A stretch of 64,000 nt of DNA, from the NCBI GenBank assembly GCA_964579415.1, contig CAZOGW010000002.1, positions 14,612 to 78,611 on the forward strand. The letters run 5' to 3'. The notes under the pieces are model-generated. The model had not been told where the DNA came from, did no database searches, and saw only the letters and a program-made list of their open reading frames with translations. Below are positions 967-60,371 of this stretch, in pieces. Every line of letters starts with the position of its first letter. The first letter of the stretch is position 1. Source of the DNA: an uncultured Acidimicrobiaceae bacterium. Lineage in GTDB: Bacteria; Actinomycetota; Acidimicrobiia; Spongiisociales; UBA5794. Position numbers and translations under genes: made by a program.

Positions 967-1521
967 GTGAAGCCCTTGGAAGGTGTAGGTGTGGACCGGG
1001 AAGTGACCGGTGCCCAGGCCACGGATAGTCGTGGCGGCCCGGCGGTGCAGAAGATCCGCGAGCTTTCGTTCGAGGACTACTACCGCAACCACCGGGACCG
1101 CATGTTCCGGGCGCTGGCGCTGACACTCGGTGACGTCGACCTCGCCGCCGACGCGGCGGACGAGGCGATGGTGCGGACGTACCAGCACTGGCGCAAGGTT
1201 CGGGACTACGGCAATCCGACGGGTTGGACTTACCGGGTGGGCCTCAACTGGGCACGTTCCCGGCTGAGGAAGGCGAAGAGGGAGCAGCTCGGCATCGTGC
1301 CGGAGACCGCCCGTCTCGATCCGGAAGGATCGGACCCGGTCCTGGTGGCGAAGGTGGCGGAGCTGCCGCTTCCCGCCCGCTCGGTGGTGGTCATGAGGTT
1401 TTACCTGCAGTGGTCCCATGAAGAGATCGCAGAGGCGTTGGACATACCGATCGGCACGGTGAAGAGCCGCCTTCACCGGGCCGTTGCCGACCTGCGGGGC
1501 AAGCTGGAGGTGGCGGAGTGA
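967..1521 (+). CDS. ECF-family RNA polymerase sigma-70 factor
   Basis: Region 2 (FEDYYRNHRDRMFRAL...YQHWRK) and region 4 HTH (VVVMRFYLQWSHEEIAEALDIPIGTVKSRLHRA). A 4-nt GTGA overlap joins it to the next gene. Confidence 0.85.
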   Translation: MKPLEGVGVDREVTGAQATDSRGGPAVQKIRELSFEDYYRNHRDRMFRALALTLGDVDLAADAADEAMVRTYQHWRKVRDYGNPTGWTYRVGLNWARSRLRKAKREQLGIVPETARLDPEGSDPVLVAKVAELPLPARSVVVMRFYLQWSHEEIAEALDIPIGTVKSRLHRAVADLRGKLEVAE

Positions 1522-3182
1522 GCATCGAGGAACTGCTCCAGAGCGAGCTGGAGCACGCCGCCGCCCGCATCGACGCGCCGTCGAGCAGGCTGGAGGACGT
1601 GATGGCACGCGGCGGGCGCCGCCGAGCCGGTCGCCTCGTCGCTCTCGCCGGGACCGGTGTGGCGTGCCTCGCCGTCGCCGTGGGCGTCACCGCCCTGGTC
1701 GCCGGCTCCCGGGCACCGGTCACACCGGTGGCGACACCCACGCCGACCACGATCCAACCGACGGCCGCTCGAGGTGTGGTGGAGACCGTCGAGGGCGACA
1801 TCGTCGTCGACGGCCACGGCCTGGCGGTGCGTCCCGCCGCCGGCGGAGCTCCCCAGCCCATCATGGAGGCACACACCCTGCAACTGGGCGGGCGCCCCAG
1901 CTTCGGGCCGGCGCTGTCGGACGGTGCCGGAGGGTTCGTCTACTCGGTGGCGGAGGTCACCAGGTCCGCCACCGGCGTCTCCGGCCATGTGTTGTGGGTG
2001 CCTGCCGGTGAGACCACACCCCGCATCGTGGCGGTAGAACCACTGGTCGGCGTCGGAGAGGTGATCGGCGTCGTCGACGGGCCCGACGCCCGCGAGGTCG
2101 TGTATACGACCGCGGCGGGGCGCACCGCAGTGGTGCGCATGGCCCCCCTCAAGCGCGGCGCGGCACGCACCGTTGCCGAGGGAGTCCACGCCGTGGGGGC
2201 CTCGGGACGCCACATCATCGCCACCAGCCACGCCGGGGGCTGCACCCAGCTCAGGATCTTCACCACCCAAGCGACGGAGAGGCCCCTCTCCGAACTGCCG
2301 GGGACCACGTGCAAGGACATCCGCGGCACGGTGCTGTCACCGGACGGTACCGGCGCCGCCTTCCTGGATTTCACCGGTGGCGAGGCCACCCTCACCGTGA
2401 TCGACGCCACCAGCGGAAGGCCCGTCGCCGAGTGGACGGTGGGCGAGGGCCGGCTCGTCGACTTCGACGGGGAGTACGCCTACCTGGACGGCCGCCGCCG
2501 CGTCGCCATCGCCACCGGGGTGGTCGAATCGAACAGCTCCGCTCCCGGCGACGTGTTCCAGATCAACGACCGCCTCGTGCTGCAGGCGCCGGGGAACGCC
2601 AGCGTCTCCTACGAGGAGGCGGCCGGGGCTGCGCCCCAGCGAACCAGCGAGGACACCACCTCGACGGGAGGCACCGGGGGCGACTGGCGGGTGCTGGTTC
2701 GCTCGCAGTCGGTCGATCCCCCGGTCGATCTCGACGTGTTCGGCGTCACCACCACCGGGCTGGGGCCCTACGTCCTCGGTGCCCGCGTCCAGGCCGTCGC
2801 CGACGCTTCGGGACACGACCTGCTCGCCCCGGAGGGAGGGATCGGGTACTGCGGAACCGTGGCCCCGGGCCGTGCCGCCGCCGTGAGCCGCGGCGACCTC
2901 ACCGTCACCGTCGTCAACGATCGGGTGGTCCGCTTCGACTTCTCCACCCCCCGGTTCACCTTCGACGGGCTCGGTGTCGGCTCCAGTATCGACGACATCA
3001 TCCGGCGCTACCCGGCGGCCGAGGTCGTCCCGGTCGACACCGTCTTCGACCGGGAGCGGGTGACATTGTCGCCGGTGGACGACGACGGCATCGAGGTGGT
3101 GTTCGAGGTGGCAGGCGACATGGTGACCCGCTACCGCGTCGGCATCCCCCGCCATCTCGAACCGCCGGTGCCCTGCCGATGA
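1518..3182 (+). CDS. Putative anti-sigma factor-like membrane protein: short cytoplasmic N-terminus, one transmembrane helix, large extracytoplasmic domain
   Basis: Translationally coupled to the ECF sigma gene. One hydrophobic helix (LVALAGTGVACLAVAVGVTALVAG) after about 40 residues. No recognisable catalytic motif. Confidence 0.55.
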   Translation: MSIEELLQSELEHAAARIDAPSSRLEDVMARGGRRRAGRLVALAGTGVACLAVAVGVTALVAGSRAPVTPVATPTPTTIQPTAARGVVETVEGDIVVDGHGLAVRPAAGGAPQPIMEAHTLQLGGRPSFGPALSDGAGGFVYSVAEVTRSATGVSGHVLWVPAGETTPRIVAVEPLVGVGEVIGVVDGPDAREVVYTTAAGRTAVVRMAPLKRGAARTVAEGVHAVGASGRHIIATSHAGGCTQLRIFTTQATERPLSELPGTTCKDIRGTVLSPDGTGAAFLDFTGGEATLTVIDATSGRPVAEWTVGEGRLVDFDGEYAYLDGRRRVAIATGVVESNSSAPGDVFQINDRLVLQAPGNASVSYEEAAGAAPQRTSEDTTSTGGTGGDWRVLVRSQSVDPPVDLDVFGVTTTGLGPYVLGARVQAVADASGHDLLAPEGGIGYCGTVAPGRAAAVSRGDLTVTVVNDRVVRFDFSTPRFTFDGLGVGSSIDDIIRRYPAAEVVPVDTVFDRERVTLSPVDDDGIEVVFEVAGDMVTRYRVGIPRHLEPPVPCR

Positions 3183-3221
3183 TCACCGGTTAGACACCGG
3201 CCCCTCCTACACTCCGCCGCC

Positions 3222-4370
3222 GTGAACGCCTTCAACAAACTCATCGCCGCGCTCAAAGAGCTCCCGCCCGCCCGCCGCAACCTCCTCATCGGGCTCGGTG
3301 CCCTGGTGGTCGTGGTGCTCTTCGCCATCGTCTTCGCCCTCTGCAGCGGAGGGGACGACGCTCCCCCGACCACGACCACCACCACCGGTGCTCCCGTCAC
3401 CACGACGACCGCGGCCCCCACCACCACCGCAGAGAGCACGACATCCACCTCCACCACGGTCGCCGCCGGACCGGTGTCACAGCTCAACGGCCTCCCCACC
3501 GGGGAGGACACCGACCTGGATCGCAGGGTTGTTGCGGTGAAGGTCGACAACCACCCCGATGCCCGCCCCCAGTCCGGGCTGCAGGAGGCCGACGCCGTCA
3601 TGGAGCTCATCGTCGAAGGCGGGTTGTCACGGTTCATCGCCCTCTTCCACGAATCCGACAGCGAGTACGTCGGTCCGGTGCGGTCGGTGCGGCCCACCGA
3701 CCCCACGCTGGTACGCCCCCTCGACGCCGTCCTCCAGATCTCGGGCGGCCAGCCGTGGGTCCAGAACATCGTCAGCGGCGCCGGCGTCAACTTCCTCAGC
3801 GAGTCGGCCTCGAGCACCTTCCGCATCTCCGGCCGCAGCGCCCCCCACAACCTCTACGCCAGCACCCCCGCCATCCGCGAGCTGGCCGACGAGCGGGGTT
3901 GGCCCGACGAGCCGCCCGCCGACGGGGCATGGTTCACCTTCGGGACCCCGCCACCGGCCGACGCCACCGCCGAGACCGTGACCCTCGACTGGTCGTCGCA
4001 GCAGCCGGTGCCCGTGGTATGGCGCTGGGACGGCGAGCAGTACCTGCGCTCCTACGGCGAGACGCCTCACGAATGGGTCGATGCCGAGGGAGAGCGGGGC
4101 CAGATCGCCACCGACACCCTGGTGGTGCTCACCACCCCCCTCTACACCGCCTCCGGTAGCTCGGGCTCCTCGGTCCCGGCCCTGGAGACCACCGGCACCG
4201 GCACCGCCTACGTGTTCGTCGACGGGTCGGTCATCGAGGGCACCTGGCAGCGTGACGAGATCACCGAGGCGTTCTCGCTGACCACAGCCGACGGCGCCAC
4301 CATCGAGCTTCCCGCCGGCCGCCTCTGGGTCAGCGTGTTCCCCGACAGCCGGCCCGTCACCTGGGAATGA
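3222..4370 (+). CDS. DUF3048-family (YerB-like) membrane-anchored or lipoprotein with Thr/Pro-rich linker
   Basis: N-terminal TM or signal anchor with Cys (ALCSGG), a poly-Thr/Pro linker, then VVAVKVDNHPDARPQSGLQEADAVMELIVEGGLSRFIALFH, typical of DUF3048. Confidence 0.7.
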   Translation: MNAFNKLIAALKELPPARRNLLIGLGALVVVVLFAIVFALCSGGDDAPPTTTTTTGAPVTTTTAAPTTTAESTTSTSTTVAAGPVSQLNGLPTGEDTDLDRRVVAVKVDNHPDARPQSGLQEADAVMELIVEGGLSRFIALFHESDSEYVGPVRSVRPTDPTLVRPLDAVLQISGGQPWVQNIVSGAGVNFLSESASSTFRISGRSAPHNLYASTPAIRELADERGWPDEPPADGAWFTFGTPPPADATAETVTLDWSSQQPVPVVWRWDGEQYLRSYGETPHEWVDAEGERGQIATDTLVVLTTPLYTASGSSGSSVPALETTGTGTAYVFVDGSVIEGTWQRDEITEAFSLTTADGATIELPAGRLWVSVFPDSRPVTWE

Positions 4371-5773
4371 CCGCAGGCCGTCCCCGACCGGATGGCCTCG
4401 CCGCGCTGGCGGCAGCCGTCCGCCGCGGGGAGCGCTCCGCCGCCGACATCGCCGCCACCTACCTGGGACGGATCGAGAGCGCCGGGGCCTCGATCAACGC
4501 CTTCACCGCCCCACCGGACGGCACCGCCCTCACCGCCGCTGCCGCCGTCGACGCCGCGGTGGCAGCCGGAGCGGATCCGGGCCCGCTCGCCGGAATCCCG
4601 GTCGCCATCAAGGACATCATCGACGAGGCCGGTGTCCCCAACACTCGGGGCACGTCCTTCGCTCCCCCGGTGCCCGAGACGTCGGCGCCGGTCGTCGACC
4701 GCCTCGACGCCGCCGGGGCGGTGCGTTTCGGCCGCACCGTGCTGCACGAGTTCGCCTTCGGCTACAGCTCGGAGAACCACTGGTTCGGCCCGGTGCGCAA
4801 CCCGTGGGACACCGCCACCTCCTGCGGAGGCTCGTCCGGCGGTTCGGCGGCGGCTGTCGCCGCCGGATTCGCCCCCGCCGCCCTCGGCACCGACACCGGC
4901 GGTTCGGTGCGGGTCCCCGCCGCCATGTGCGGCATCGTCGGTCTCAAGGTGACCCACGGCCGCATCCCCATCACCGGGGTCTACCCGCTGGGACCGTCGC
5001 TGGACACGGTGGGCCCGCTAACGCGCAGCGTCGACGACGCCGCCTCGCTGTACCTGGCACTGGCCGGCCACCACCCCGGCGACATCTGGTCACGGAACGT
5101 CCCCGTCACCGCGCCGGGCACGCCCCCGCCCGCCGGGGACATCCGCCTCGGCATCCCCCACCCGTGGGTCGAGACGCCGCTCGACGGCGCCGTGGCGGAG
5201 GGATGGGCGTGGTTCCATGACCGCTGCCGGAAGCTGGGGATCGAGGTGGTGTCACTGCACCTGCCCGAGATCGACTTCCCCGGACGGGTGCTGGAGTCGA
5301 TCTACCCGGAGGTGGCCGAGATCCACCGGGAGCGGTTCGCCGCCCACCCCGAGGGCTACGGCCCGGAGGTGCGCCGGCGCGTCGAGGCCGCCATGGGCTA
5401 CACCATGGCCCACTACCTCGAGGGTCTGGCGTGGCGGAACCGGATCGGTGACGCCCTCTCCAGGGCGTTGCGCGACTGCGACGCCGTGGTCACCCCCACG
5501 GTCCCCACGATCCGCAAGGTCATCGGCGAGGACAGCGTCGCCCTCGGCGGCGAGGACTTCCACTACCGGGCGGCACTGAGCCGCTTCGCGGCGCTGGTCA
5601 ACCACGCCGGGGTACCCGCCCTGTCGCTCCCGCTGGCGATCGACGGCGCCCCTCCCCCCAGCGTCCAGCTCATCGGGCCTATGTGGGGCGAGCATCGCCT
5701 CCTCGAGCTGGGCGGCCTCCTCGAAGCCGAGGGCGTGGCCGGGGCACGCCCGCCCGCCGGATTCGATTGGTAG
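4367..5773 (+). CDS. Amidase-signature family enzyme (GatA-like amidase)
   Basis: GIPVAIKDIID...NTRGTS and the amidase signature GGSSGGSAAAVAAGFAPAALGTDTGGSVRVPAAMCGIVGLKVTHGRI (Ser-cisSer-Lys triad). Confidence 0.85.
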   Translation: MTAGRPRPDGLAALAAAVRRGERSAADIAATYLGRIESAGASINAFTAPPDGTALTAAAAVDAAVAAGADPGPLAGIPVAIKDIIDEAGVPNTRGTSFAPPVPETSAPVVDRLDAAGAVRFGRTVLHEFAFGYSSENHWFGPVRNPWDTATSCGGSSGGSAAAVAAGFAPAALGTDTGGSVRVPAAMCGIVGLKVTHGRIPITGVYPLGPSLDTVGPLTRSVDDAASLYLALAGHHPGDIWSRNVPVTAPGTPPPAGDIRLGIPHPWVETPLDGAVAEGWAWFHDRCRKLGIEVVSLHLPEIDFPGRVLESIYPEVAEIHRERFAAHPEGYGPEVRRRVEAAMGYTMAHYLEGLAWRNRIGDALSRALRDCDAVVTPTVPTIRKVIGEDSVALGGEDFHYRAALSRFAALVNHAGVPALSLPLAIDGAPPPSVQLIGPMWGEHRLLELGGLLEAEGVAGARPPAGFDW

Positions 5774-5960
5774 CGGCGCCGCTCCGGGTTCCGGGGACAA
5801 AGGGACGAAAGTCCCACTCGGAAGGTTCCACCTCCGGATCACTCGCGCATAGACTGCAAGCTCGGGTGGGGGCGTTGCGACACCCTACCTGGTGCGCCCT
5901 GGCGGGCACATCAACCAGAACTAAGAGGCCGCTCCCACGCGGCCACCAAGGAAGGCCACC

Positions 5961-7831
5961 GTGGCGGAAGACACCCTTACCAAGCCCATCGATCGCGAGA
6001 AGCTCGACCGGGTCGTAATTCGATTCGCCGGCGACTCCGGTGACGGCATGCAGCTCGCCGGGACCCGCTTCACCGACGCGTCCGCCCTGTTCGGCAACGA
6101 CCTGGCGACTCTCCCCAACTTCCCCGCCGAGATCCGGGCCCCCGCCGGCACGCTACCCGGCGTGTCGTCGTTCCAGGTCCACATCGCCGACTGGGACATC
6201 CTCACCCCGGGCGACGAGCCCGACGTGCTGGTCGCCATGAACCCGGCGGCCCTCAAGGCGAACCTGGGCGATCTGCGCAAGGGCGGGCTGCTCCTGGTGA
6301 ACAGCGACGCCTTCGACGAGCGCAACCTCACCAAGGCCGGGTTCACCGGCAACCCCCTCGAGGACGGATCGCTGGAGGGCTACCACGTGCTCACCGCCCC
6401 GATGGAGGAGCTGACCAAGCTGGCGGTCGCCACCACCGGCCTCACCGGGCGGGGAGTGCTCCGCTCCAAGAACTTCTTCGCCCTCGGCCTGGTGTCGTGG
6501 ATGTTCAACCGCCCCACCGACACGGTGTTCGCCTGGCTCGACGAGAAGTTCGGTCCCGACGACGCGGTGGCCAAGGGCAACGCCGCCGCCTTCCGCGCCG
6601 GCTACAACTTCGGCATCACCACCGAGGAGTTCCACCACACCTACGAGGTGGAACCGGCCCGGCTCCCCGCCGGCGAGTACACCAACGTCACCGGCAACCA
6701 GGCGCTGGCGTGGGGCCTCATCGCCGCCGCCTCCTCGGTCCGGTTGCCGCTGTTCTATGGCTCGTACCCGATCACCCCGGCGTCGGGCATCCTCGAGGAA
6801 CTGGCCCGCCACAAGAACTTCGGGGTTCGCACCCTGCAGGTGGAGGACGAGATCGCCGCCGTCGGCGTCGCTCTGGGATCGTCGTTCGCCGGCCACCTCG
6901 GTGTCACCGGCACCAGCGGTCCCGGGGTCGCCCTCAAGTCGGAGACGATCAGCCTGGCGTTCCAGACCGAGCTGCCGCTCATCGTGGTCGACGTCCAGCG
7001 CGCCGGACCGTCGACCGGCATGCCCACCAAGGTGGAACAGGCCGACCTGCTGCTGGCGCTCTACGGCCGGCATGGCGAGGCGCCGCTCCCCGTGATCGCG
7101 GTATCGTCACCCAGCGACGCCTTCGAGACCGCCATCGAGGCGGTCCGCATCGCCGTCAACTTCATGACCCCGGTGATCCTGCTCTCCGACGGCTACATCG
7201 CCAACAGCTCGGAGCCGTGGAGCCTCCCCGACGTGGAGGCGATCCCCGACCACTCGGTGGCTTTCGCCGCAGCGGTCGAGGGCAGCGAGTTCCTCCCCTA
7301 CCGGCGTGACCCCGAGACGCTGGCCCGCCCCTGGGCCGTCCCGGGGACACCGGGCCTGGAGCACCGTGTCGGCGGTCTCGAGCACGAGGACGGCACCGGC
7401 AACGTGTCGTACGAGCCGCTGAACCACGAGGCGATGACCATCGTGCGCGAGAACAAGATGCGGGCGGTGGCCCGTTCCCTGCCGCCGCTCGAAGTATGGG
7501 ACCCAGACGGAGACGCCGACCTGCTGGTGGTGGGCTGGGGTTCGACCTTCGGCGCCATCCGCGCCGGCGTGCGTAACACCGCCAAGGCGGGCTACAGCGC
7601 CGCCCACCTGCACCTGCGCCACCTGTGCCCCCTGCCCGACGACCTGGGCGACGTCCTGGCCCGCTACGACCAGGTGCTGGTGCCCGAGCTGAATCGAGGT
7701 CAGCTGGTCAAAGTGCTGCGGGCGGAGTACCTGGTTCCCGCCATCGGCTACGGGAAGGTCCAGGGGCTGCCCTTCAAGGCGGCCGAGATCAGCCGCAAGA
7801 TCATGGAGCTCATCGACCACAAGGACGCACG

Positions 7832-7835
<4 letters not shown>
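5961..7835 (+). CDS. korA: 2-oxoglutarate/2-oxoacid:ferredoxin oxidoreductase subunit alpha (KorA-type fused alpha/gamma)
   Basis: Length (624 aa), N-terminus RFAGDSGDGMQLAG, the POR catalytic domain, and a 4-nt ATGA overlap with a TPP-binding beta subunit gene. Confidence 0.85.
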
Positions 7836-8839
<1,004 letters not shown>

Positions 8840-8861
8840 CCGGTCGCCGGAGACCGAGCCC

Positions 8862-9848
8862 GTGACGGCGGCGCCGCCGGTGTCGTGTGTCATCCCGGTG
8901 CGCAACGAGGCGCACAGCATCGCCGCCGCGGTGGAGAGCTGCCTGGATCAGACCTATCCCGGCCCCCTCGAGGTGGTGGTGGCGGACGCCATGAGCACCG
9001 ACGGCACCCGCGACGTGGTCACCCGGCTCGCCGGTGCCGACGCCCGGGTGCGCCTGGTGGACAACCCGACACGGGTCACCCCCGCCGGACTCAACGCCGC
9101 CATAGCCGTCGCCGGCGGTGAGGTGGTGGCCCGCTGCGACGCCCACGCCGTGCTGCCCTCCGACTACGTCGCCACTGCAGTGCGGCTCCTCGACGAGACC
9201 GGCGCCGCCTGCGTGGGAGGGGTGCAGCGGGCGGTGGGCGTGACGCCGGTACAGCGCGCCATCGCAGCCGCCATGTCGACGCCGATCGGCGTCGGTGACG
9301 CCCGCTTCCACTACGGCGGCGACCCGGGGCCGGTGGACACCGTGTACCTGGGAGTGTTCCGCCGGACCGCCCTCGACACCGTCGGCGGGTTCGACGAGCA
9401 CCTGCGACGCAACCAGGACTACGAGCTCAACCACAGGCTCCGCCTCGCCCAGGGGCCGGACGCGGTGTGGTTCGACCCCTCCCTCGGTGTCGAGTACCGG
9501 CCCCGTGCATCTCTGCGGGCACTGTGGAAGCAGTACTTCGACTACGGTATCGGCAAGCGGGTCATGCTGCGCCGCCATCCCCGCTCTCTGCGTTGGCGCC
9601 AGCTCGTCGCCCCTGCGTTCGTGGTGTCGCTGGCGGCGTCCGTCGTCGCCCTCGCCGTGGGCTGGACCGCACTGGGGCTGGTTGTCCCGCTGGCGTACGC
9701 CGCGGTGCTGGCGTTCGGCACCGTCGTAGAGCTGTGGCGCCGTCGCGACGCCGCCATGCTGGCGCTCCCCGCCGCCCTCGCCTCGATGCACACCGCCTGG
9801 GGCCTCGGCTTCTTGGGCGCCTCGCTCGATTCCCGATCCCGGCGGTGA
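8862..9848 (+). CDS. Family 2 glycosyltransferase (GT-A) with C-terminal transmembrane helices
   Basis: SCVIPVRNEAHSIAAAVESCLDQTY...EVVVADAMSTDGT (GT2 DxD context). Two or three hydrophobic helices at the C-terminus. Confidence 0.8.
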   Translation: MTAAPPVSCVIPVRNEAHSIAAAVESCLDQTYPGPLEVVVADAMSTDGTRDVVTRLAGADARVRLVDNPTRVTPAGLNAAIAVAGGEVVARCDAHAVLPSDYVATAVRLLDETGAACVGGVQRAVGVTPVQRAIAAAMSTPIGVGDARFHYGGDPGPVDTVYLGVFRRTALDTVGGFDEHLRRNQDYELNHRLRLAQGPDAVWFDPSLGVEYRPRASLRALWKQYFDYGIGKRVMLRRHPRSLRWRQLVAPAFVVSLAASVVALAVGWTALGLVVPLAYAAVLAFGTVVELWRRRDAAMLALPAALASMHTAWGLGFLGASLDSRSRR

Positions 9849-9972: not shown

Positions 9973-11154
9973 ATGGATGTCCCCAAGGTGACAGCACGAA
10001 GCCGGACGCCGCGACACCTGCGGAGCCCCGTCGTGGCGGTGGGGCTGACGCTGGTCCTGGTGACGGCGATGTCGCTGGTGCGGGTGGCGCCGACGTTGGC
10101 GGCCGACTCGATCGCCACCCCGGACAGCGCCGGCGCATCCATCTCGCCGGCAGGCCGCGCTGCGCCGCCGCCGACCTGCAACGGCGTACCGGCAACGATC
10201 CTGGGCACGTCCGACAGCGAGTGGATCATCGGCACACCCGGCGACGATGTGATCCATGCCGGGGCAGGCGACGACTTCGTTTCCGGCGGAGGCGGCGACG
10301 ACATCATCTGCGGGGGCGCCGGCAACGACAACCTCCAGGGCGGCGAAGGTGAGGACGAGCTCCACGGTGGGGCCGGCAGCGACATCCTCCGAGGCGGCCC
10401 CGGCGCCGACAAACTGTGGGGCGGCGCCGGCGACGACAACATGTGGGGTCACCAGGACGACGACAGCATGTGGGGCGGCGCCGGCAACGACAACCTCCGA
10501 GGCGGGACCGGGGACAACCAGATCCACGGCGGTTCCGGCAACGACACCCTCAACAGTGGCTGGGGCAACGACGTGCTCTGGGGCGATTCCGGTAATGACC
10601 TCCTCAACGGCGGCGGCGGCAACGATTCCCTCCACGGCCAGGCGGGTGCCGACAGGCTCATCGGAGGCTCCGGCGACGACACACTCAGCGGAGGCGCCGG
10701 CGACGACAAGCTGTGGGGCCGCTCCGGAGACGACACCCTCAGCGGTGGCGCCGGTAACGACCTGCTCTACGGCGAGGAGGACACCGACACGCTCGACGGC
10801 GGGCGCGGTGACGACAAGCTGCGGGGCGGGCCAGGCAATGACGACCTCCGTGGCGGCATCGGCAACGACAAGCTGTGGGGTGATTCCGGCAACGACGAGC
10901 TCCGGGGCGGCAAGGGCAACGACATCCTCAGAGGCGGTACCGGGCACGACAAGCTGTGGGGCGGCGCCGGCAACGACACCCTCAACGGCTTCGCCGGCAA
11001 TGATCAGCTCTACGGAGAACCCGGCAACGACACCCTCAACGGCGGCGGCGACGACGACCGGCTTCGGGGAGGCCCGGGCAGGGACATCTGCAACGGCAAC
11101 CACGGCATCGACACCGCCGACAGCACCTGCGAGACGAAGACCGGCGTCCCCTGA
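9973..11154 (+). CDS. Secreted RTX (hemolysin-type Ca2+-binding nonapeptide) beta-roll repeat protein with no other recognised domain
   Basis: Good SD (gggagga) 13 nt upstream of the ATG and a Sec-type signal peptide (RHLRSPVVAVGLTLVLVTAMSLVRVAPTLAADS). About 30 GGxGxDxLx repeats, a CxxxxATIxGTxxDxxI N-cap and a C-terminal CNGNHGIDTADSTCETKTGVP cap. Confidence 0.85.
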   Translation: MDVPKVTARSRTPRHLRSPVVAVGLTLVLVTAMSLVRVAPTLAADSIATPDSAGASISPAGRAAPPPTCNGVPATILGTSDSEWIIGTPGDDVIHAGAGDDFVSGGGGDDIICGGAGNDNLQGGEGEDELHGGAGSDILRGGPGADKLWGGAGDDNMWGHQDDDSMWGGAGNDNLRGGTGDNQIHGGSGNDTLNSGWGNDVLWGDSGNDLLNGGGGNDSLHGQAGADRLIGGSGDDTLSGGAGDDKLWGRSGDDTLSGGAGNDLLYGEEDTDTLDGGRGDDKLRGGPGNDDLRGGIGNDKLWGDSGNDELRGGKGNDILRGGTGHDKLWGGAGNDTLNGFAGNDQLYGEPGNDTLNGGGDDDRLRGGPGRDICNGNHGIDTADSTCETKTGVP

Positions 11155-21123: not shown

Positions 21124-23520
21124 TCAGGGGATGCTCACCTTCACCTCGCATCTCGTCGCCGTGTCCGTGCCGGAGCCGCCGTGGCAGGTGTCGGTGTTGC
21201 CGCCTCCGCGGAGGTCGTCGGCGCCGCTGCCGCCGTACAGGGCGTCGGCGCCGGCTCCACCCCGGATCAGATCGGGACCGGCGTTCCCGTAGAGCGTGTC
21301 GTTCCCTGCCCCGCCGTCGACGGTGTCGCTGCCGTCGCCACCGCGCAGTATGTCGCCCCCGGCCTCCCCGTGAAGGGTGTCGTTACCCTTGCCTCCGTAC
21401 AGAAGGTCGTCGCCGGTGCCGCCGAGGATCAAGTCGTTCCCGGTGTTTCCCCAGAGGCGGTCATGCCCTCCCCCGCCGTGCAGGTAGTCGCTGTCGCTGC
21501 CGCCGCGCAACCGGTCGTCCCCTCCGGCACCACGGAGCGTGTCGCGACCTGTGCCGCCCCCCAGCTTGTCGTTCCCGGGACCCCCGTAGAGCAGGTCGGC
21601 GTCGGAGCCGCCGCTGATCTCGTCGTCGCCCCGCTGGCCGTAGAGCCGGTCGACCCCGCCCTCACCGTAGAGGCGGTCCTTGCCGGTGCCGCCGAGGATC
21701 AGGTCGTCGCCGACCCCGCCATGGATCGTGTCGGCTCCGCTCCCCCCGAAGACCACGTCGTTGCCGGGACCGGCGTAGACGCGGTCGTTGCCGGAGCCTC
21801 CGCAGATCACGTCGTTACCGCCGCGGCCGTGGATCACATCGTGACCCCGCCCCGCCCAGATGATGTCATTCCCCTTGGTGCCGTAGATGACGTCGTTGCC
21901 CGAGGTGCCCAGGATGGTGGCCCGCTCTCTGGTACACCACCACGCCTCGTTGTCGGCGGTGGCCGTATCGCACTTCCACCCGGCGGGGACGAACCACGAT
22001 GTCGGCGAGGCGCCAGGGATCGCCGTGTTGCCCAGGTACACGTCGAGGACGCCGTTGGTGCGGAGCAGGAACAGGTCGTCACGGCCGTCGCCGTCGAAGT
22101 CGTTGGCGAGGACGTCCGCCCAGGCGCCGGAGGCGGGCAGCGTCCTCGTCTCGTTGACTGTGCCATAGCCGTTGAGCAGGATGCGAACCTTGGCCCGGTC
22201 GATCGCATACAGGTCGGGCAGGTCGTCGACGTTGCGGTCGCCGAGGGTGAACTGCCACGAGCGAGTGTCGCCGAGCGGGGTTGCGGTGTCGGCGAGCTTG
22301 GACTTGTAGCCTCCCTTGCCGTTCCACACCTCGACCCGGGTGGCGGTCGCCGAACGGCGGATGACGAACAGGTCCTGCACGCCGTCGCGGTTGTGGTCTC
22401 CCAGCAGGTAGGCGGCGCCGGCCGAAGGCTTGACCGCGGTCGACAACTTCACGGTCTTCTTGAACTCCTTGGAGCGTAGAGCCACCTCCATCGCCACCGT
22501 GGAGCCTTTGCTGTCGATGAACCAGATGTCGGTGCGGCCGTGGCGCTCGTAGTCGGCGTAGGCGACCAGGCGACCACGCCGCGTCACCGCCGGCACCACG
22601 AACGACGAGGCGGCGCAGGCCCGGTGCAGTTGGTGGGTGCGGGAGAACTCCACCAGGAGGGAGGTGCCGGCGTCGCCCACCTCTACGACATCGGCGAGGC
22701 CGTTGCCGGTGAAGTCGGCCAACGCCTGCGGCTTGCCCGCCTCCGTGGGACCGATGGCGGCGACGTCGTAGGTGGCGGCGAGGGTGGTGAAGTTGGCCGG
22801 GCTGGTGGTGGGCGGGTACGGCTTGGGGACGGTGCCGTAACCCGGGGTGGCGTTGGGGCCCATCCAACTGAAGTGCATGGTGTCCTTGATGTCCATCCAG
22901 TCGCCGCCCCAGCAGAACCCGGCGTCGCGCCACGCCTGGACGAACCAGTCCGGCATGTCGGTGATCTTCGTGTTGTCGGAGCGGTAGGGGTTGGTGGTCC
23001 AGTTGATGTCGATGGTGGCGCCGAAGGTGTGGTTGGAGATGCTGAAGGAGCCACCCACCGTGCGCGGCACGTAGGTGGCGGTATCGCCGCTGCGGATGCG
23101 GTAAGGCTTACCGGGATTGGCGGCGGCAGCGGCGACGAGGTTGGCGCCTGCCTTCTGGAACGCCGGGAGCGCCCGCTCGTGGACCCTCACCACCTTGCCG
23201 CCGCTCAGCGGCACGGTCCAGTTGACCAGTTCGCTCGAGAGCTGGCCGATGGTGCGCCCGAAGAAGTCGCCGCGGTACCCGCGTATCCGGTCCGGCGACG
23301 ACAGCGGGCCGGAGCGGGTATGGAGCGGGTTCGACGTCGACGGGGGGCCGCAGCCCGCCGACTCGTTGAAGGAGGGGAACCCGCCACCTTCCCCGGCGAG
23401 TCCTTCCCCCAGCCCGTCGCCATGCGCCGGGTGATAACCCTCATGCTCGGGGGGGATCGGGTCGTCCGCAGGCTGGGACCAGGCCGGAGGCGCCGTCATC
23501 GTCACCAGGCCGAGCGCCAT
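21124..23520 (-). CDS. Secreted three-part protein: LAS/M15-like (VanY-type) D,D-peptidase domain, FG-GAP/VCBS repeats, then C-terminal RTX beta-roll
   Basis: Signal-peptide-like MALGLVTMTAPPAWSQP; the ORF is open further upstream, so the start is uncertain. Peptidase-like region SGDTATYVP...HTFGATIDINW...DTMHFSW. FG-GAP motifs (DFTGNGLADVV, GDHNRDGVQDLFVI, NDFDGDGRDDLFLL). About 25 GGxGxD repeats and a terminal CHGGSGTDTATRCEVKVSIP cap. Confidence 0.7.
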   Translation of the reverse strand: MALGLVTMTAPPAWSQPADDPIPPEHEGYHPAHGDGLGEGLAGEGGGFPSFNESAGCGPPSTSNPLHTRSGPLSSPDRIRGYRGDFFGRTIGQLSSELVNWTVPLSGGKVVRVHERALPAFQKAGANLVAAAAANPGKPYRIRSGDTATYVPRTVGGSFSISNHTFGATIDINWTTNPYRSDNTKITDMPDWFVQAWRDAGFCWGGDWMDIKDTMHFSWMGPNATPGYGTVPKPYPPTTSPANFTTLAATYDVAAIGPTEAGKPQALADFTGNGLADVVEVGDAGTSLLVEFSRTHQLHRACAASSFVVPAVTRRGRLVAYADYERHGRTDIWFIDSKGSTVAMEVALRSKEFKKTVKLSTAVKPSAGAAYLLGDHNRDGVQDLFVIRRSATATRVEVWNGKGGYKSKLADTATPLGDTRSWQFTLGDRNVDDLPDLYAIDRAKVRILLNGYGTVNETRTLPASGAWADVLANDFDGDGRDDLFLLRTNGVLDVYLGNTAIPGASPTSWFVPAGWKCDTATADNEAWWCTRERATILGTSGNDVIYGTKGNDIIWAGRGHDVIHGRGGNDVICGGSGNDRVYAGPGNDVVFGGSGADTIHGGVGDDLILGGTGKDRLYGEGGVDRLYGQRGDDEISGGSDADLLYGGPGNDKLGGGTGRDTLRGAGGDDRLRGGSDSDYLHGGGGHDRLWGNTGNDLILGGTGDDLLYGGKGNDTLHGEAGGDILRGGDGSDTVDGGAGNDTLYGNAGPDLIRGGAGADALYGGSGADDLRGGGNTDTCHGGSGTDTATRCEVKVSIP

Positions 23521-23720
23521 GGCAATCCCCACTACCCGCCGGCCACCACGGCGCAGTCCTTGATGAAGCTGTCGGCTCGTCACCCAGGCGAGGCTAACCC
23601 AGGTGGCGATATAGGCGACTTCCTCGCGGGCAGGCCCGTGCCCGGAAGCGGTTACTCCACGATGCCCTCCCCTGCCACTACAATCCACCCGCCGCCGCCG
23701 GGCCATCCCCCGGGAGAACG

Positions 23721-32514: not shown

Positions 32515-32519
32515 CCCAC

Positions 32520-33707: not shown

Positions 33708-33709
33708 GG

Positions 33710-48633: not shown

Positions 48634-49929
48634 ATGAGGCTCCTGGCGATTGCCCTTTCGGTGCTGGTGGCGCTGACAGGGCTCGGCGGCTCCGTCGCGT
48701 CCGCCGCACAGGGGGACGACGAGCGTCGGCGCATCGGATATCTGGCGGGTGACGAGGGGAAGGATTGGCACCTGAAGCACTTCCCGGTGCCGCACCGCAA
48801 GGTGGTCGGCTCGGAGTCGTACTACCTCACCTTCGACGACGCCCAGACCGAGAACACGGTCGCGCTTCTCGATGGGCTGAAGGCATGGCCGGACGTCAAG
48901 ATCACGTTCTTCGTCAACTGCTACGAGATGAGCCCCGGCGTCTACCAGCGCATCCTCGACGAGGGCCATGCGATCGGGAATCACACCTGCAACCACGTCC
49001 CTCTCACCGAGCTCGGCAAGCAGGGACGCACCGAACAGTTCGACAAGCTGCGTCGCTTCGTGATGGCGCGTGTGGATCCCGACAAGGCCATTGGCTGTTA
49101 TCGGCCCCCGTTCGGGCTCACCAGCGACTCGGTGCGCGATCACGCCTGGAACTCGCTGGATCTTTACGAATGGGGATGGAACGTCAATACCGAGGACTAC
49201 GAGTACCCCGGGACCGCAGCCATCCAGCATGACCTCGACACCATGCGCGCCGGCGATATCGCTCTCATGCACACGTCGAGAGGCAAGTCGGCGACGGTGC
49301 AGGCGACGTTGAGCCACCTGGCCCGGTATGCCGGGATGCGGTCGTACGAGGTCCTTCCCGGGTGCGCCACGTATGCGCCGCCTCTCTGCCAGGGCAGGCC
49401 TGCCACCATCGTGGGGACGCCGAAAGGGGACCGGATCAAAGGCACGTCCGGCGACGATGTGATCTGGGCCGGTCCCGGCGACGACGTCGTCCATGCCCTG
49501 GCCGGTGATGACATCGTCTGCGGCGGCGGGGGTTCCGACGTCATCCACGGCGGGCCCGGAGACGACGTGCTGTCGGGGGAGAAGGGGAAGGACGTTCTGC
49601 GGGGCGGTCCCGGTAGCGACCTGTTGGATGGTGACACCGGCGCCGACCGGCTCTACGGAGGAAGGGGCAGCGACACGCTGCGCGGCCGTACCGGCTCCGA
49701 CCGGCTCTGGGGCGGTCCCGGAGCGGACCACCTGTACGGCGGCAAGGGAGCCGACCACCTGCGCGGCAACGCCGGCGACGACCGGCTGGTGGGAGGACCC
49801 GGAAGCGACCACCTCCGCGGCGGCAAGGGAGCCGACATATTGCGCGGTGGCGCAGGCACCGACATCTGTATCGGTGGACCGGGAGCGGATGCCGGACATC
49901 TCTGCGAGACGACGGTATCCATCCTCTGA
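48634..49929 (+). CDS. Secreted CE4 (NodB-homology) polysaccharide deacetylase fused to a C-terminal RTX beta-roll
   Basis: Signal peptide MRLLAIALSVLVALTGLGGSVASA; CE4 motifs TFDDA and GNHTCNH; N-cap CQGRPATIVGTPKGD; about 18 GGxGxD repeats; terminal CIGGPGADAGHLCETTVSIL. Confidence 0.8.
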   Translation: MRLLAIALSVLVALTGLGGSVASAAQGDDERRRIGYLAGDEGKDWHLKHFPVPHRKVVGSESYYLTFDDAQTENTVALLDGLKAWPDVKITFFVNCYEMSPGVYQRILDEGHAIGNHTCNHVPLTELGKQGRTEQFDKLRRFVMARVDPDKAIGCYRPPFGLTSDSVRDHAWNSLDLYEWGWNVNTEDYEYPGTAAIQHDLDTMRAGDIALMHTSRGKSATVQATLSHLARYAGMRSYEVLPGCATYAPPLCQGRPATIVGTPKGDRIKGTSGDDVIWAGPGDDVVHALAGDDIVCGGGGSDVIHGGPGDDVLSGEKGKDVLRGGPGSDLLDGDTGADRLYGGRGSDTLRGRTGSDRLWGGPGADHLYGGKGADHLRGNAGDDRLVGGPGSDHLRGGKGADILRGGAGTDICIGGPGADAGHLCETTVSIL

Positions 49930-58919: not shown

Positions 58920-60371
58920 ATGTCTCGCATTGCCCAGACGACCGGCCGCGATACGCGGCGGCGTCGCAACCGTCGCGTCCTGATCGTCACCGTGGCGCTG
59001 TGGGCCTTGCTGCCGGTGCATGCCGGCGGCGCCTCCGCTGGTGGTCACCAGCCGGAGGACGCCACGGTGGGTTCGGCGGCCGAACCCGAGGATCTCACCC
59101 GACCGCTCGCCGCCCCACAATCGGGCCCGGCTTCCACCGGCGGCAGGGCCGTGGTGTACTTCGGCATCGACGACGGGCCTTCCTGCTCCGACAAGGTGAC
59201 CTGGGGAATGCTCGACCTCTTCGCCCGCCACGGCGCAAGGGCCACCTGGTTCGTCACCGGCAATGTCAACTGCAACTCTGACGCTCTCCGGGCCATCGTG
59301 ACCGGCGGTCACGCGGTGGGAAGTCACACCTACGGCCACGACAACCTGACACGGCTCTCCCACGGGGCTCGCCTGGCCACCTTCGACAAGCTGCAGTCGG
59401 CTGTCACCCGGCACGGCGGCCCCAAGATGACCTGCTACCGGCCGCCCTACGGAGCCACCAACAGCTCGGTGCGGGCCTCGGCGGCCCAGCGTGGGATGGT
59501 GGAATGGCTGTGGAACGTCGACCCGCGCGACTGGAGCGACCCGGGCGTCTCCAAGATCCTCGCCAGCTTCAACCGGCTCGAGGACGGTGACGTGGTGGTG
59601 ATCCACGACGGCAACAGCAACCAGCAGACTCTCGACGCCCTGCGCATCTGGCTGCCCGCCAACGCCTCCCGGTTCGCGCTGAGGCCGCTCCCGGGGTGTG
59701 CCGCCGCAGAACCGCTGCGGTGCCAAGGCGAGCCGGCGACCATCATCGGGACCGACGGCGACGACATCCTTCAGGGCACACCGGGTAGGGACGTGATCTG
59801 GGGTGGGGAAGGCGACGACACCATCCGTGCGGGAGCGGGCGACGACGTCGTCTGCGGCGGGCCCGGCGACGACAAGATCTACGGCGAAGCCGGCAAGGAC
59901 ATACTGGCGGGAGGGCCGGGGAAGGATGATCTCATCGGCGGGCAAAACGCCGACACCCTCAAGGGAGGGCCGGGAGCGGACCGGCTGTGGGGCGGGAAGG
60001 GCGCCGACACGCTCAGCGGTGGTCCGGGCGCAGATGAGCTCTACGGCGGTCCCGGACCCGACACCCTCCGCGGCGGGTCCGGTGCCGACCAGTTGCGAGG
60101 AGGCAGTGGCGCCGACAGGATGTGGGGAAGCACCGGGCAGGACCTCCTGTCGGGTGGCTCCGGCGCCGACAGGATATGGGGGAACGCCGGGCGGGACCTC
60201 CTGTCGGGGGGACCCGGCGCCGACGTCTTAGCCGGGGGGGACGGGCACGACACGCTGGTGGGGGGCCGCGGGCCTGACGTCCTCAGAGGCGGGCCGGGCC
60301 GTGACACCTGCCGCGGCGGGCCGGGCATCGACAAGGCCACATCGTGCTCGACGGTGAGCAGCGTGCCCTGA
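58920..60371 (+). CDS. Secreted CE4 polysaccharide deacetylase fused to a C-terminal RTX beta-roll (paralog of 48634-49929)
   Basis: Signal peptide RRRRNRRVLIVTVALWALLPVHAGGASA; CE4 motifs (GIDDGP, GSHTYGHDN); N-cap CQGEPATIIGTDGDD; about 22 GGxGxD repeats; terminal CRGGPGIDKATSCSTVSSVP. Confidence 0.8.
   Translation: MSRIAQTTGRDTRRRRNRRVLIVTVALWALLPVHAGGASAGGHQPEDATVGSAAEPEDLTRPLAAPQSGPASTGGRAVVYFGIDDGPSCSDKVTWGMLDLFARHGARATWFVTGNVNCNSDALRAIVTGGHAVGSHTYGHDNLTRLSHGARLATFDKLQSAVTRHGGPKMTCYRPPYGATNSSVRASAAQRGMVEWLWNVDPRDWSDPGVSKILASFNRLEDGDVVVIHDGNSNQQTLDALRIWLPANASRFALRPLPGCAAAEPLRCQGEPATIIGTDGDDILQGTPGRDVIWGGEGDDTIRAGAGDDVVCGGPGDDKIYGEAGKDILAGGPGKDDLIGGQNADTLKGGPGADRLWGGKGADTLSGGPGADELYGGPGPDTLRGGSGADQLRGGSGADRMWGSTGQDLLSGGSGADRIWGNAGRDLLSGGPGADVLAGGDGHDTLVGGRGPDVLRGGPGRDTCRGGPGIDKATSCSTVSSVP

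What the first reader, a model, noticed from the sequence alone, without database searches (positions are those of the whole stretch)
9973..11154. Family of four Sec-secreted RTX beta-roll proteins with conserved Cys N-cap and Cys-x(10)-Cys-x(6)-Pro C-terminal cap, three of them fused to envelope-acting enzymes
Proteins at 9973-11154, 21124-23520, 48634-49929 and 58920-60371 all have an N-terminal Sec signal peptide and a block of GGxGxD nonapeptide repeats. The block is preceded by C-x-G-x-PATI-x-GT-x-GDD and ended by [C]-x-GG-x-G-x-D-x-A-x(2)-C-[ES]-x(5)-P/L at the extreme C-terminus. Examples: CNGNHGIDTADSTCETKTGVP, CHGGSGTDTATRCEVKVSIP, CIGGPGADAGHLCETTVSIL, CRGGPGIDKATSCSTVSSVP. In Gram-negative bacteria RTX repeats accompany a T1SS C-terminal signal. 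Here a Sec signal is present and no T1SS genes are nearby. So the beta-roll is more likely a Ca2+-dependent binding module. My hypothesis is that it docks two CE4 deacetylases, an M15-like D,D-peptidase/FG-GAP protein and one domain-less protein onto the anionic polymer (phosphonate, phosphate, sulfate, nonulosonate) made by the locus. That would be a polymer-specific anchoring system analogous to SLH/pyruvylated-SCWP anchoring. The conserved Cys pairs suggest disulfide-capped rolls.
Basis: seen in the sequence. Interest (0 to 1): 0.75.

Follow-up and report, generated by a model that had tools for sequence, protein, structure and literature searches.

The report
Signal-peptide-exported, cysteine-capped RTX beta-roll module
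Four exported cell-wall proteins of an Acidimicrobiia bacterium each carry a calcium-binding RTX beta-roll closed at both ends by a conserved cysteine pair; I found no description of this signal-peptide-exported variant of the domain in the papers and family libraries searched, it is common in Actinomycetota, and nothing links it specifically to the wall polymer made by this locus.

Summary
The window has exactly four RTX-repeat genes, each with an N-terminal signal peptide. Two carry a CE4 deacetylase, one an M15 peptidase plus FG-GAP, and one has no other domain. No type I secretion gene is in the window.

The N-cap contains a second cysteine exactly 44 residues after the first. A DNA pattern for the N-cap that leaves out that second cysteine found at least 119 loci in species genomes. 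All 123 ORFs had Cys at +44, and 85% of loci were Actinomycetota. The C-terminal pair is C-x11/12-C, not x10.

The same C-cap occurs inside proteins where the roll comes before the CE4 domain. So it is a structural cap, not a C-terminal secretion signal. AlphaFold2 models the whole module as one beta-roll (pLDDT 97.7).

Polymer-specific anchoring is not supported. The module is fused to about 50 different Pfam families. Its genes elsewhere do not lie in wall-polymer loci. Two syntenic Acidimicrobiia relatives have a polysaccharide locus here without any RTX gene.

Most likely it is a general, calcium-folded, probably disulfide-stapled module adapted to N-to-C export. It is a new variant of a known kind. 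The disulfides, calcium binding and any ligand are untested.

The parts
9973..11154 (+). P1: 393-aa exported protein made only of a signal peptide, a short linker and a 36-row capped RTX module
   Evidence: ORF. Pfam finds HemolysinCabind only, E 8e-104. Nonapeptide register. The exact protein was found on only one Logan contig.
9973..10104 (+). P1 signal peptide (approximate): n-region with 5 Arg/Lys, h-region PVVAVGLTLVLVTAMSLV, site TLA|A
   Evidence: Translation. Judged by eye; no SignalP-type tool was available.
10177..10311 (+). P1 N-cap, from C69 to C113 (C-x43-C)
11089..11151 (+). P1 C-cap: CNGNHGIDTADSTCETKTGVP (C-x12-C-E-x5-P, then stop)
21124..23583 (-). P2: exported LAS/M15 peptidase + FG-GAP + 30-row capped RTX module. 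The start is probably the GTG at 23583.
   Evidence: P2 heads a run of minus-strand genes reaching the LicD-TPR gene at 11189.
22867..23046 (-). P2 Peptidase_M15_4 domain, containing SNHTFGATID (SxHxxGxAxD) and a later His
   Evidence: Pfam 48.7 bits against a cut-off of 25. Sequence.
22069..22233 (-). P2 best-scoring FG-GAP_3 stretch
   Evidence: Pfam 31.4 bits against a cut-off of 26.9.
21802..21936 (-). P2 N-cap, from C591 to C635 (numbered from 23706): CTRERATILGT...GNDVIC
21127..21186 (-). P2 C-cap: CHGGSGTDTATRCEVKVSIP
48634..49929 (+). P3: exported CE4 deacetylase + 20-row capped RTX module (431 aa)
   Evidence: An identical protein (P0001) lies on a 79.5-kb NCBI contig.
48808..49143 (+). 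P3 CE4 domain, with TFDD, HTCNH, RPPF and LMH motifs
   Evidence: Pfam 61.6 bits against a cut-off of 23.1. Motifs.
49387..49521 (+). P3 N-cap, from C252 to C296
   Evidence: Confidently modelled by AlphaFold2.
49867..49926 (+). P3 C-cap: CIGGPGADAGHLCETTVSIL
58920..60371 (+). P4: exported CE4 deacetylase + 24-row capped RTX module (483 aa). It is a paralogue of P3 (44% identity over 84% of the query).
   Evidence: P0002.
59139..59498 (+). P4 CE4 domain, with IDD, HTYGH, RPPY, DPRDW and IHD motifs
   Evidence: Pfam 85 bits against a cut-off of 23.1. Motifs.
59721..59855 (+). P4 N-cap, from C268 to C312
60309..60368 (+). P4 C-cap: CRGGPGIDKATSCSTVSSVP

Best explanation
The four genes encode exported cell-envelope proteins of an Acidimicrobiia bacterium (Actinomycetota). 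There are two CE4 deacetylases, one LAS/M15 peptidase with FG-GAP repeats, and one protein that is only a roll. Each carries the same self-contained module, a variant of the RTX beta-roll adapted to export through an N-terminal signal peptide.

Anatomy (shown): about 45 residues of five degenerate rows, beginning C-x-G-x2-A-T-I-x-G-T and ending GxDx[IV]-C, with an invariant Cys-x43-Cys. Then come 13-30 canonical GGxGxDxLx rows. Then a terminal plug, C-x-GG-x-G-x-D-x-A-x2-C-E. Its first Cys sits at the core-facing position 8 of its row, and the next row has a small residue (Ala or Gly) at that position.

Mechanism (inferred): the chain leaves the translocon N-terminus first into a calcium-rich, oxidising wall zone. 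The N-cap folds first and is locked by a Cys1-Cys45 disulfide. It then serves as the template on which the calcium-binding rows stack. The C-terminal plug and its disulfide seal the open edge. This would mirror type I secretion substrates, whose folding starts from a C-terminal cap and runs C-to-N.

The product is a rigid rod, about 5 nm long in P3 and about 9 nm in P1. It probably stabilises the attached wall-modifying enzymes and perhaps spaces or retains them. The caps are structural, not secretion or sorting signals. The module is general-purpose, not a dedicated anchor for this locus's polymer.
For: RTX identity and register.

Module boundaries:
- The four Cys are invariant in 15 aligned modules, and gaps come only in multiples of nine.
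- Among 42 N-capped proteins in the P3 hit list, the next Cys is at +44 in nearly all; one motif match has it at +41.
- A genome-wide DNA pattern that omits the second Cys gave 123 of 123 ORFs with Cys at +44.

The cap is not a C-terminal signal: 17 proteins have the same C-cap internally, followed by a linker and a CE4 domain.

Link to signal peptides:
- 107 of 120 short N-cap hits have C-x43-C about 25-45 residues from the start, and 88 have a hydrophobic stretch before it.
- 66 of 78 genome ORFs with an N-proximal cap have such a stretch.

Cys content: median 7 in capped proteins against 0 in uncapped RTX hits. The RTX literature stresses the lack of Cys and disulfides, the need for a C-terminal cap, and C-to-N ratchet folding (PMC6891781).

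Fold: AlphaFold2 gives pLDDT 97.7 and pTM 0.92, with strands every nine residues from residue 20 to 181 and confident caps. The best long structural match is the calcium-dependent beta-helix 3P4G (TM 0.66, rmsd 3.2 A). CyaA RTX blocks have the best E-values.

No T1SS: none in the window, and none of the NCBIfam hits is a T1SS C-terminal target model. RTX genes in Actinobacteria genomes lacking a T1SS were noted in 2010 (PMC3034196).

General-purpose module: 51 partner Pfam families, no linkage to polymer loci, and absence from syntenic relatives.

Lineage: the named korA hits are Acidimicrobiia, and 101 of 119 N-cap loci are Actinomycetota.
Against: - No disulfide has been shown. The tools return no coordinates, so Cys-Cys distances in the model could not be measured.
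- Covariation could not be tested because motifs lacking one Cys are too rare: 97 had both, 6 only the second, 1 only the first, and 2 neither.
- The N-to-C nucleation idea is inference from conservation and topology only.
- P2 and P4 have twin-arginine-like n-regions. Tat export of a folded protein would fit this mechanism poorly.
- Four such genes within 64 kb of one wall-polymer locus, one of them (P2) heading a minus-strand run of polymer genes, is a real local association. A purely general module does not explain it.
- The rest of the genome was not available, so enrichment could not be measured.
Confidence: 0.6

Rival explanations
1. The beta-roll is a calcium-dependent binding module that docks these four proteins onto the anionic wall polymer made by this locus, as SLH domains dock onto pyruvylated secondary cell-wall polymer.
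For: - All four RTX genes lie within one glycopolymer locus (GTs, two Stealth genes, LicD-TPR, TagF-like, NeuB, CMP-transferase, ABC exporter, rml genes).
- P2 heads a minus-strand run of polymer genes.
- If each row binds one calcium ion, the rolls would carry a net positive charge. That is my arithmetic on the residue counts.
- Position 9 of the window's rows is rich in Arg (26%) and Trp/Tyr (30%).
- From my own knowledge, not checked here: the RTX R-modules of the AlgE epimerases bind alginate. Those modules are sequence relatives (PDB 2ML2, 2AGM).
Against: - The module is fused to 51 unrelated families.
- There are no polymer-locus homologues in 886 kb around 119 N-capped genes.
- CE4-RTX homologues lie in unrelated contexts.
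- Syntenic relatives have a polysaccharide locus but no RTX rows.
- The module occurs in archaea and diderms.
- Across the wider sets, surface positions 7 and 9 do not differ between capped and uncapped RTX proteins.
Confidence: 0.15
2. They are classical type I secretion substrates. The C-terminal cap would be the secretion signal, and the N-terminal 'signal peptides' would be artefacts of start-codon choice.
For: RTX repeats are the hallmark of T1SS substrates (PMC3034196). The cap lies at the extreme C-terminus in all four window proteins.
Against: - No ABC_membrane/C39, HlyD or OEP family was found in any scanned window ORF.
- The same cap is internal in 17 homologues.
- Signal-like N-termini are the rule across the family.
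- Four conserved Cys are atypical of T1SS substrates.
- The lineage is Actinomycetota. From my own knowledge, most of these have no outer membrane.
- None of the NCBIfam hits is a T1SS C-terminal target model.
Confidence: 0.02
3. The rolls are self-assembling surface or matrix elements, like an S-layer or a calcium-gelled sheath. P1 would be the structural subunit, and the enzymes would be co-assembled through roll-roll contacts.
For: P1 is nothing but a 36-row roll. From my own knowledge, RTX-containing S-layer proteins exist (RsaA; listed in the table of PMC6891781). Uncapped beta-rolls aggregate edge to edge.
Against: Both edges are capped, which by the argument in PMC6891781 prevents edge-to-edge polymerisation. 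No P1 orthologue exists in the two syntenic relatives. Lateral assembly could not be tested.
Confidence: 0.1
4. They are secreted antagonistic enzymes aimed at competitors' walls, with the roll as a delivery or stability stalk.
For: The partners are peptidoglycan- or glycan-active enzymes (CE4, M15) and, in other genomes, trypsin, nucleases, phosphodiesterases and CAP domains. RTX repeats also occur in polymorphic toxin systems (PMC3482391, listed but not read).
Against: No immunity-like small gene is evident beside P1-P4. The 163-aa ORF at 60344-60835 was never scanned. CE4 deacetylases usually modify the producer's own wall or polymer (own knowledge). The genes lie inside a biosynthetic locus.
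Confidence: 0.08

Closest known systems
Classical RTX beta-roll domains of type I secretion substrates (CyaA, HlyA, serralysins, family I.3 lipases; Pfam PF00353)
   Same: The same GGxGxDxUx nonapeptide, with Gly1, Gly4 and Asp6 nearly invariant. The fold is predicted to be the same, a parallel beta-roll. Both need end caps (PMC6891781).
   Different: - An N-terminal signal peptide replaces the C-terminal T1SS signal.
- There are four invariant Cys in two local pairs, where classical RTX proteins have almost none.
- The most conserved cap is at the N-terminal end rather than the C-terminal end.
- The module can sit before or after the passenger domain.
- It forms one uninterrupted roll of 20-36 rows rather than short blocks joined by linkers.
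- It is mostly found in Actinomycetota, Chloroflexota and Nitrososphaeria.
MpIBP region IV, the calcium-dependent beta-helical ice-binding domain (PDB 3P4G)
   Same: It is the best long structural superposition (TM 0.66, rmsd 3.2 A over 178 columns). Both are long, straight, calcium-stabilised solenoids.
   Different: Sequence identity is only 22-24%. From my own knowledge, MpIBP is part of a giant T1SS adhesin. No N-cap motif or Cys pairs were found in the solved RTX structures that match by sequence.
AlgE R-modules (RTX modules of the Azotobacter mannuronan C5-epimerases; PDB 2AGM, 2ML1-3)
   Same: They are RTX modules attached to polysaccharide-modifying enzymes and are sequence relatives (E 2e-7 to 1e-5).
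   Different: From my own knowledge, they are T1SS-type proteins of a diderm with short rolls, and I know of no Cys caps in them. In the window, co-location is the only evidence linking the roll to a polymer.
SLH domains with pyruvylated secondary cell-wall polymer
   Same: Both are modular, position-independent extracellular domains fused to many different exported enzymes in monoderm bacteria.
   Different: There is no sequence or fold relation. No SLH or pyruvyl-transferase family turned up in the window scans. Module genes and polymer genes do not co-occur across genomes.

Membership tests
RTX / HemolysinCabind beta-roll (PF00353) | Tandem GGxGxDxUx nonapeptides scoring above the Pfam gathering threshold | tested here: met
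   199-339 bits against a cut-off of 23 for all four proteins. There are 20-36 rows in an unbroken 9-residue register; across 82 canonical rows, Asp6 is present in 81 and Gly1 in 80.
RTX / HemolysinCabind beta-roll (PF00353) | Parallel beta-roll fold | tested here: met
   The AlphaFold2 model of the P3 module has pLDDT 97.7, with strands every 9 residues. Foldseek's top matches are CyaA RTX blocks and 3P4G. This is a prediction, not an experiment.
RTX / HemolysinCabind beta-roll (PF00353) | Calcium binding and calcium-dependent folding | not testable with these tools
   Inferred only from intact ligand positions.
Type I secretion substrates (classical RTX proteins) | No cleavable N-terminal signal peptide | tested here: not met
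   All four have n-, h- and c-regions. Signal-like N-termini precede the cap across the family. These are heuristic judgements, not SignalP predictions.
Type I secretion substrates (classical RTX proteins) | Secretion signal at the extreme C-terminus after the repeats | tested here: not met
   Only 7-8 residues follow the last Cys. The same cap is internal in 17 homologues. None of the NCBIfam hits is a T1SS C-terminal target model.
Type I secretion substrates (classical RTX proteins) | Dedicated ABC transporter, membrane-fusion protein and outer-membrane factor genes | tested here: not met
   None among the window ORFs scanned. The only ABC pair (46769-48371) has a 256-aa ATPase beside a separate 280-aa ORF with no Pfam hit, which is not a HlyB-like fused transporter. 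The rest of the genome was not available.
Type I secretion substrates (classical RTX proteins) | Near absence of cysteine | tested here: not met
   There are four invariant Cys per module. The median is 7 Cys in capped proteins against 0 in uncapped hits. The criterion comes from PMC6891781.
   Of 119 loci, none has homologues of Stealth, LicD, TagF-like, NeuB, Bac_transf, Rml or SpoIID, and 2 have a GT2. Three CE4-RTX contexts are unrelated. Syntenic relatives lack RTX rows.
   This needs the purified polymer and a recombinant roll.
CE4 carbohydrate esterases (P3, P4 passenger domains) | Polysacc_deac_1 domain with catalytic and metal motifs (DD, HxxxH, RxPY/F, LxH) | tested here: met
   61.6 and 85 bits against a cut-off of 23.1. 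The motifs are present in both, but P3's motif 4 is atypical. The substrate is unknown.
LAS / M15 zinc peptidases (P2 passenger domain) | Peptidase_M15_4 domain with SxHxxGxAxD and a distal His | tested here: met
   48.7 bits against a cut-off of 25. SNHTFGATID and DTMHFS are both present.

The most novel reading that the evidence does not exclude
The N-capped, doubly cysteine-stapled beta-roll may be a distinct, widespread lineage of RTX domains that evolved for N-to-C export through Sec. Its conserved 45-residue N-terminal nucleus would start calcium-driven folding at the exit of the translocon. It could act as a Brownian ratchet for export, the mirror image of the C-terminal cap and C-to-N ratchet of type I secretion. 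In Actinomycetota it would be a common portable folding and rigid-stalk module for exported enzymes.
Probability: 0.35. Interest if true: 0.7.

Novelty: new variant of a known kind. Interest (0 to 1): 0.55.

Why it matters
[quoted passage not shown] They are described as cysteine-free, capped at the C-terminus, and folded from C to N as they leave the secretion duct.

This window points to a large, uncharacterised set of RTX modules with the opposite logic. They have an N-terminal signal peptide, a highly conserved N-terminal cap and two cysteine pairs. They are mostly found in Actinomycetota, with some in Chloroflexota and ammonia-oxidising archaea.

If the N-cap is a folding nucleus, it makes a general question testable: how does a repeat solenoid fold vectorially during Sec export? 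It would also give protein engineers a calcium-switchable, self-capped beta-roll that works with ordinary signal peptides.

For annotation, the N-cap motif with Cys at +44 separates these proteins from 'RTX toxin' or 'hemolysin' calls. None of the 42 N-capped proteins in the P3 hit list lacks it, and only 2 of 106 cap-like motifs lack both Cys.

For this locus, P3, P4 and P2 are best read as exported wall or polymer-modifying enzymes, not toxins.

Tried and rejected
1. The profile search of 1.84 billion representatives with the 62-column N-cap profile was swamped by giant multi-repeat RTX proteins. It returned 252,845 hits, and the top 150 are 2,700-7,700 aa. It gives no count of N-caps.

2. 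The word-indexed search with the same profile returned only fragments of 83-109 aa. It was useful for signal-peptide proximity but not for domain architecture.

I replaced it with a hand-made IUPAC DNA pattern.

4. I looked for a special ligand-binding surface. The composition of outward-facing positions 7 and 9 does not differ between capped and uncapped RTX proteins. The window's rolls are somewhat richer in Arg, but that decides nothing.

5. Cys1/Cys2 covariation could not be tested because there are too few motifs lacking one Cys.

6. Lipoprotein reading of the N-cap Cys: rejected. The residues before it (T, D, R, P) do not make a lipobox, an A-x-A site usually precedes it, and the cap is internal in 45 of 123 ORFs.

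7. Sortase- or PEP-CTERM-like sorting signal at the C-terminus of P1-P4: rejected. Only 7-8 polar residues follow the last Cys, with no hydrophobic tail.

8. Exact look-up of P3 found nothing. P1 and P4 occur only on short Logan contigs from SRR16798009, so the rest of the genome could not be searched for other RTX genes or a T1SS.

9. The L127 Amidase_2+FG-GAP protein is only an analogue of P2. It shows weak FG-GAP similarity (E 0.003) and is not an orthologue.

10. Literature searches found no description of cysteine-capped or Sec-type RTX modules in the held library. They found only the 2010 remark that six Actinobacteria genomes have RTX genes but no T1SS.
Full report
**What is in the window**

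- P1: 9973-11154, plus strand.
- P2: 21124 to about 23583, minus strand.
- P3: 48634-49929, plus strand.
- P4: 58920-60371, plus strand.

Pfam confirms HemolysinCabind in all four, with E-values from 6e-60 to 8e-104. It finds Polysacc_deac_1 in P3 and P4, Peptidase_M15_4 plus FG-GAP_3 in P2, and nothing else in P1. NCBIfam gives only sub-threshold matches to RTX toxin, serralysin and deacetylase models, and none of those hits is a type I secretion C-terminal target model. P3 and P4 keep the CE4 motifs, and P2 keeps the LAS-peptidase SxHxxGxAxD motif.

All four have a charged n-region, a hydrophobic core and an A-x-A-like site. P2 and P4 have twin-arginine-like n-regions.

**Anatomy of the repeat block**

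Written in a 9-residue register from the first cap cysteine, the blocks are unbroken arrays of 36, 30, 20 and 24 rows. Across 82 canonical rows, Gly1, Gly4 and Asp6 are almost invariant.

Two corrections to the finding follow.
- The C-terminal pair is C-x11-C (C-x12-C in P1), not x10. Its first Cys occupies the core-facing position 8 of its row, and the next row has a small residue at that position.
- The N-cap has a second cysteine exactly 44 residues after the first, at the end of the fifth row (GxDx[IV]C), in all four proteins.

All four mature proteins have an even number of cysteines: 4, 8, 8 and 8.

**Is the cap conserved elsewhere?**

Among the 120 best relatives of P3, 42 proteins carry the N-cap. 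In nearly all of them the next Cys is at +44; one motif match has it at +41.

I then wrote a DNA pattern for C-x-G-x2-A-T-I-x-G-T-x7-G-T-x-G-x-D. It deliberately omits the second Cys. I scanned one genome per GTDB species with it. All 123 matching ORFs have Cys at +44.

By record title, the loci are:
- 101 Actinomycetota: 38 Acidimicrobiia, 16 Thermoleophilia-type, 23 Actinomycetes such as Nocardioides, Micropruina and Kineosporia, 1 Rubrobacter and 23 unclassified.
- 5 Chloroflexota.
- 3 Nitrososphaeria archaea.
- 10 others: Gammaproteobacteria, Verrucomicrobiales, Dadabacteria, Acidobacteriota, Peribacteria and one unclassified.

An alignment of 15 complete modules has all four Cys invariant, and its gaps come only in multiples of nine.

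**The C-cap is not a terminal signal**

In 17 homologues the module is N-terminal. The same cap, GxDxC-x-GG-x-G-x-D-x-A-x2-C-E, is followed by a conserved linker and a CE4 domain. Among 111 complete genome ORFs, 10 end with the long cap seen in the window and 44 end with a shorter Cys pair. The others continue into further domains. A cap that works in the middle of a protein cannot be a C-terminal secretion or sorting signal.

**Association with signal peptides and cysteine**

In 107 of 120 short hits to the N-cap profile, C-x43-C lies about 25-45 residues from the start, and 88 have a hydrophobic stretch before it. Of 78 genome ORFs with an N-proximal cap, 66 have such a stretch. Capped proteins have a median of 7 Cys. 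Uncapped RTX hits have a median of 0.

The RTX literature says RTX proteins conspicuously lack cysteines and disulfides. It also says a C-terminal cap is needed for folding, and that folding runs C-to-N as a ratchet through the type I duct (PMC6891781). A 2010 review noted RTX genes in six Actinobacteria genomes without type I secretion genes and left it there (PMC3034196). Five literature searches found no description of a cysteine-capped or Sec-type RTX module.

**Structure**

Solved structures that match by sequence are all type I substrates (CyaA, HlyA, lipases, serralysins, AlgE R-modules), and none covers the caps. AlphaFold2 on the P3 module, using the 15-sequence alignment, gives pLDDT 97.7 and pTM 0.92. 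Strands recur every nine residues from residue 20 to 181, and both caps are confident. Foldseek puts CyaA RTX blocks first by E-value. The calcium-dependent beta-helix 3P4G is the best long superposition (TM 0.66, rmsd 3.2 A).

In a straight roll the two ends are about 5-9 nm apart, so any disulfides must be local: Cys1-Cys45, and the C-terminal pair. I could not measure distances because no coordinates are returned.

**Testing the anchoring hypothesis**

The window is a large cell-wall glycopolymer locus. It contains:
- several glycosyltransferases;
- LicD-TPR and TagF-like-TPR genes;
- two Stealth genes;
- NeuB, a cytidylyltransferase and an MptE-like gene;
- a sulfatase-like gene;
- an ABC exporter and a priming transferase;
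- RmlA, RmlC and RmlD, and a TylF/CmcI methyltransferase;
- two SpoIID genes.

So the local association is real, and P2 heads a minus-strand run of polymer genes. But it does not generalise.
- 85 N-capped genome proteins carry 51 different partner families, including PD40, trypsin, PGA_cap, FG-GAP, phosphodiesterase, CAP, nuclease and M14.
- tblastn of the window's locus proteins against 886 kb around 119 N-capped genes finds no Stealth, LicD, TagF, NeuB, Bac_transf, Rml, CE4 or SpoIID homologues, and only two loci with a GT2.
- Three CE4-RTX homologues sit among unrelated genes.
- The best named relatives of the window's korA are Acidimicrobiia. Two relatives, at 80% and 76% korA identity, keep the left flank (methyltransferase, DUF3048, amidase, korA, korB, GT2). 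A different polysaccharide locus follows, with no RTX rows in the 22 kb examined. One has an Amidase_2+FG-GAP protein roughly where the window has P1 and P2.
- Surface positions of capped and uncapped rolls do not differ in composition.

No type I secretion component is in the window.

**Interpretation**

*Shown:* there are four exported wall-enzyme-type proteins with a self-contained RTX module bounded by two invariant Cys pairs. The module is widespread, position-independent, linked to signal peptides, and mostly found in Actinomycetota.

*Inferred:* the pairs are disulfides. From my own knowledge, Actinomycetota oxidise their exported proteins. The conserved N-cap nucleates calcium-driven folding in the N-to-C direction of Sec export, mirroring the C-terminal cap of type I substrates. 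The C-cap seals the open edge. The rod stabilises the enzymes and perhaps spaces or retains them.

*Unresolved:* why four such genes cluster here, whether the rolls have any affinity for anionic wall polymers, the substrates of the CE4 and M15 domains, and whether export of P2 and P4 is by Sec or Tat.

**Verdict**

This is a new variant of a known kind and of moderate interest.

Noticed in passing
window 57211-58860 (-) and 60856-63012 (-): Two SpoIID-domain genes flank P4. Parts of them share about 77-78% nucleotide identity, so they look like recent paralogues.
   Followed up: partly
window 175-9848; L126 6581-14409; L127 5262-14668: The left flank (methyltransferase, DUF3048, amidase, korA, korB, GT2) is syntenic in two Acidimicrobiia relatives. 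To its right each genome has a different polysaccharide locus, so this looks like a hypervariable wall-polymer site, as with O-antigen or capsule loci.
   Followed up: partly
window 42196-46785 (-), 32511-34582 (+), 36207-37310 (-), 55179-57191 (+): The locus has two tandem Stealth genes. It has NeuB, a cytidylyltransferase-HAD fusion and a weak MptE-like ORF. It also has a fused CmcI/TylF double methyltransferase next to rmlA, rmlC and rmlD. Together these suggest a phosphodiester-linked, O-methyl-rhamnose- and nonulosonate-containing polymer. I found no direct evidence for phosphonate: no PEP mutase turned up in the scans.
   Followed up: partly
L011 4384-6171, L039 1150-2901, L092 4982-6694: N-capped RTX proteins from Gammaproteobacteria and Chromatiaceae MAGs have a signal peptide. 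They end in a hydrophobic stretch followed by an Arg-rich tail (for example ...LLLAIRRRHFG), which looks like a PEP-CTERM sorting signal.
   Followed up: no
L010, L017, L082: Nitrososphaeria (ammonia-oxidising archaea) MAGs encode N-capped RTX proteins with the +44 Cys and a short C-terminal Cys pair (for example GTNTCLSDPDPEVNCEA).
   Followed up: no
L007 (3 genes), L037 (2), L088 (2); MAGs CAKZVC01 (L062, L100, L105, L112) and CALBVK01 (L009, L088, L109): N-capped RTX genes occur in tandem arrays and several times per genome, even in a truncated scan. So four copies in one genome is not unusual in itself.
   Followed up: partly
window P3 aa 244, P4 aa 260 (nt 49363-49365 and 59697-59699); P0006: CE4-RTX proteins have a further conserved Cys 8-9 residues before the N-cap Cys (PGC...C-Q-G). 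It probably pairs with one of the three Cys in the CE4 domain and ties the enzyme to the start of the roll.
   Followed up: no
window 23520-23583 and 58920-59045: P2 (RRGGRRVVGIAMAL) and P4 (RRRRNRRVLIVTVAL) have twin-arginine-like n-regions. Tat export would be odd for a domain expected to fold only with extracellular calcium.
   Followed up: no
window 1518-3182 (+), 27889-29202 (+), 39780-40748 (+), 41220-41798 (+), 47529-48371 (-), 63102-63911 (+): Several candidate ORFs chosen by third-position GC have no Pfam match. The 280-aa ORF next to the ABC ATPase is presumably the exporter's permease.
   Followed up: no
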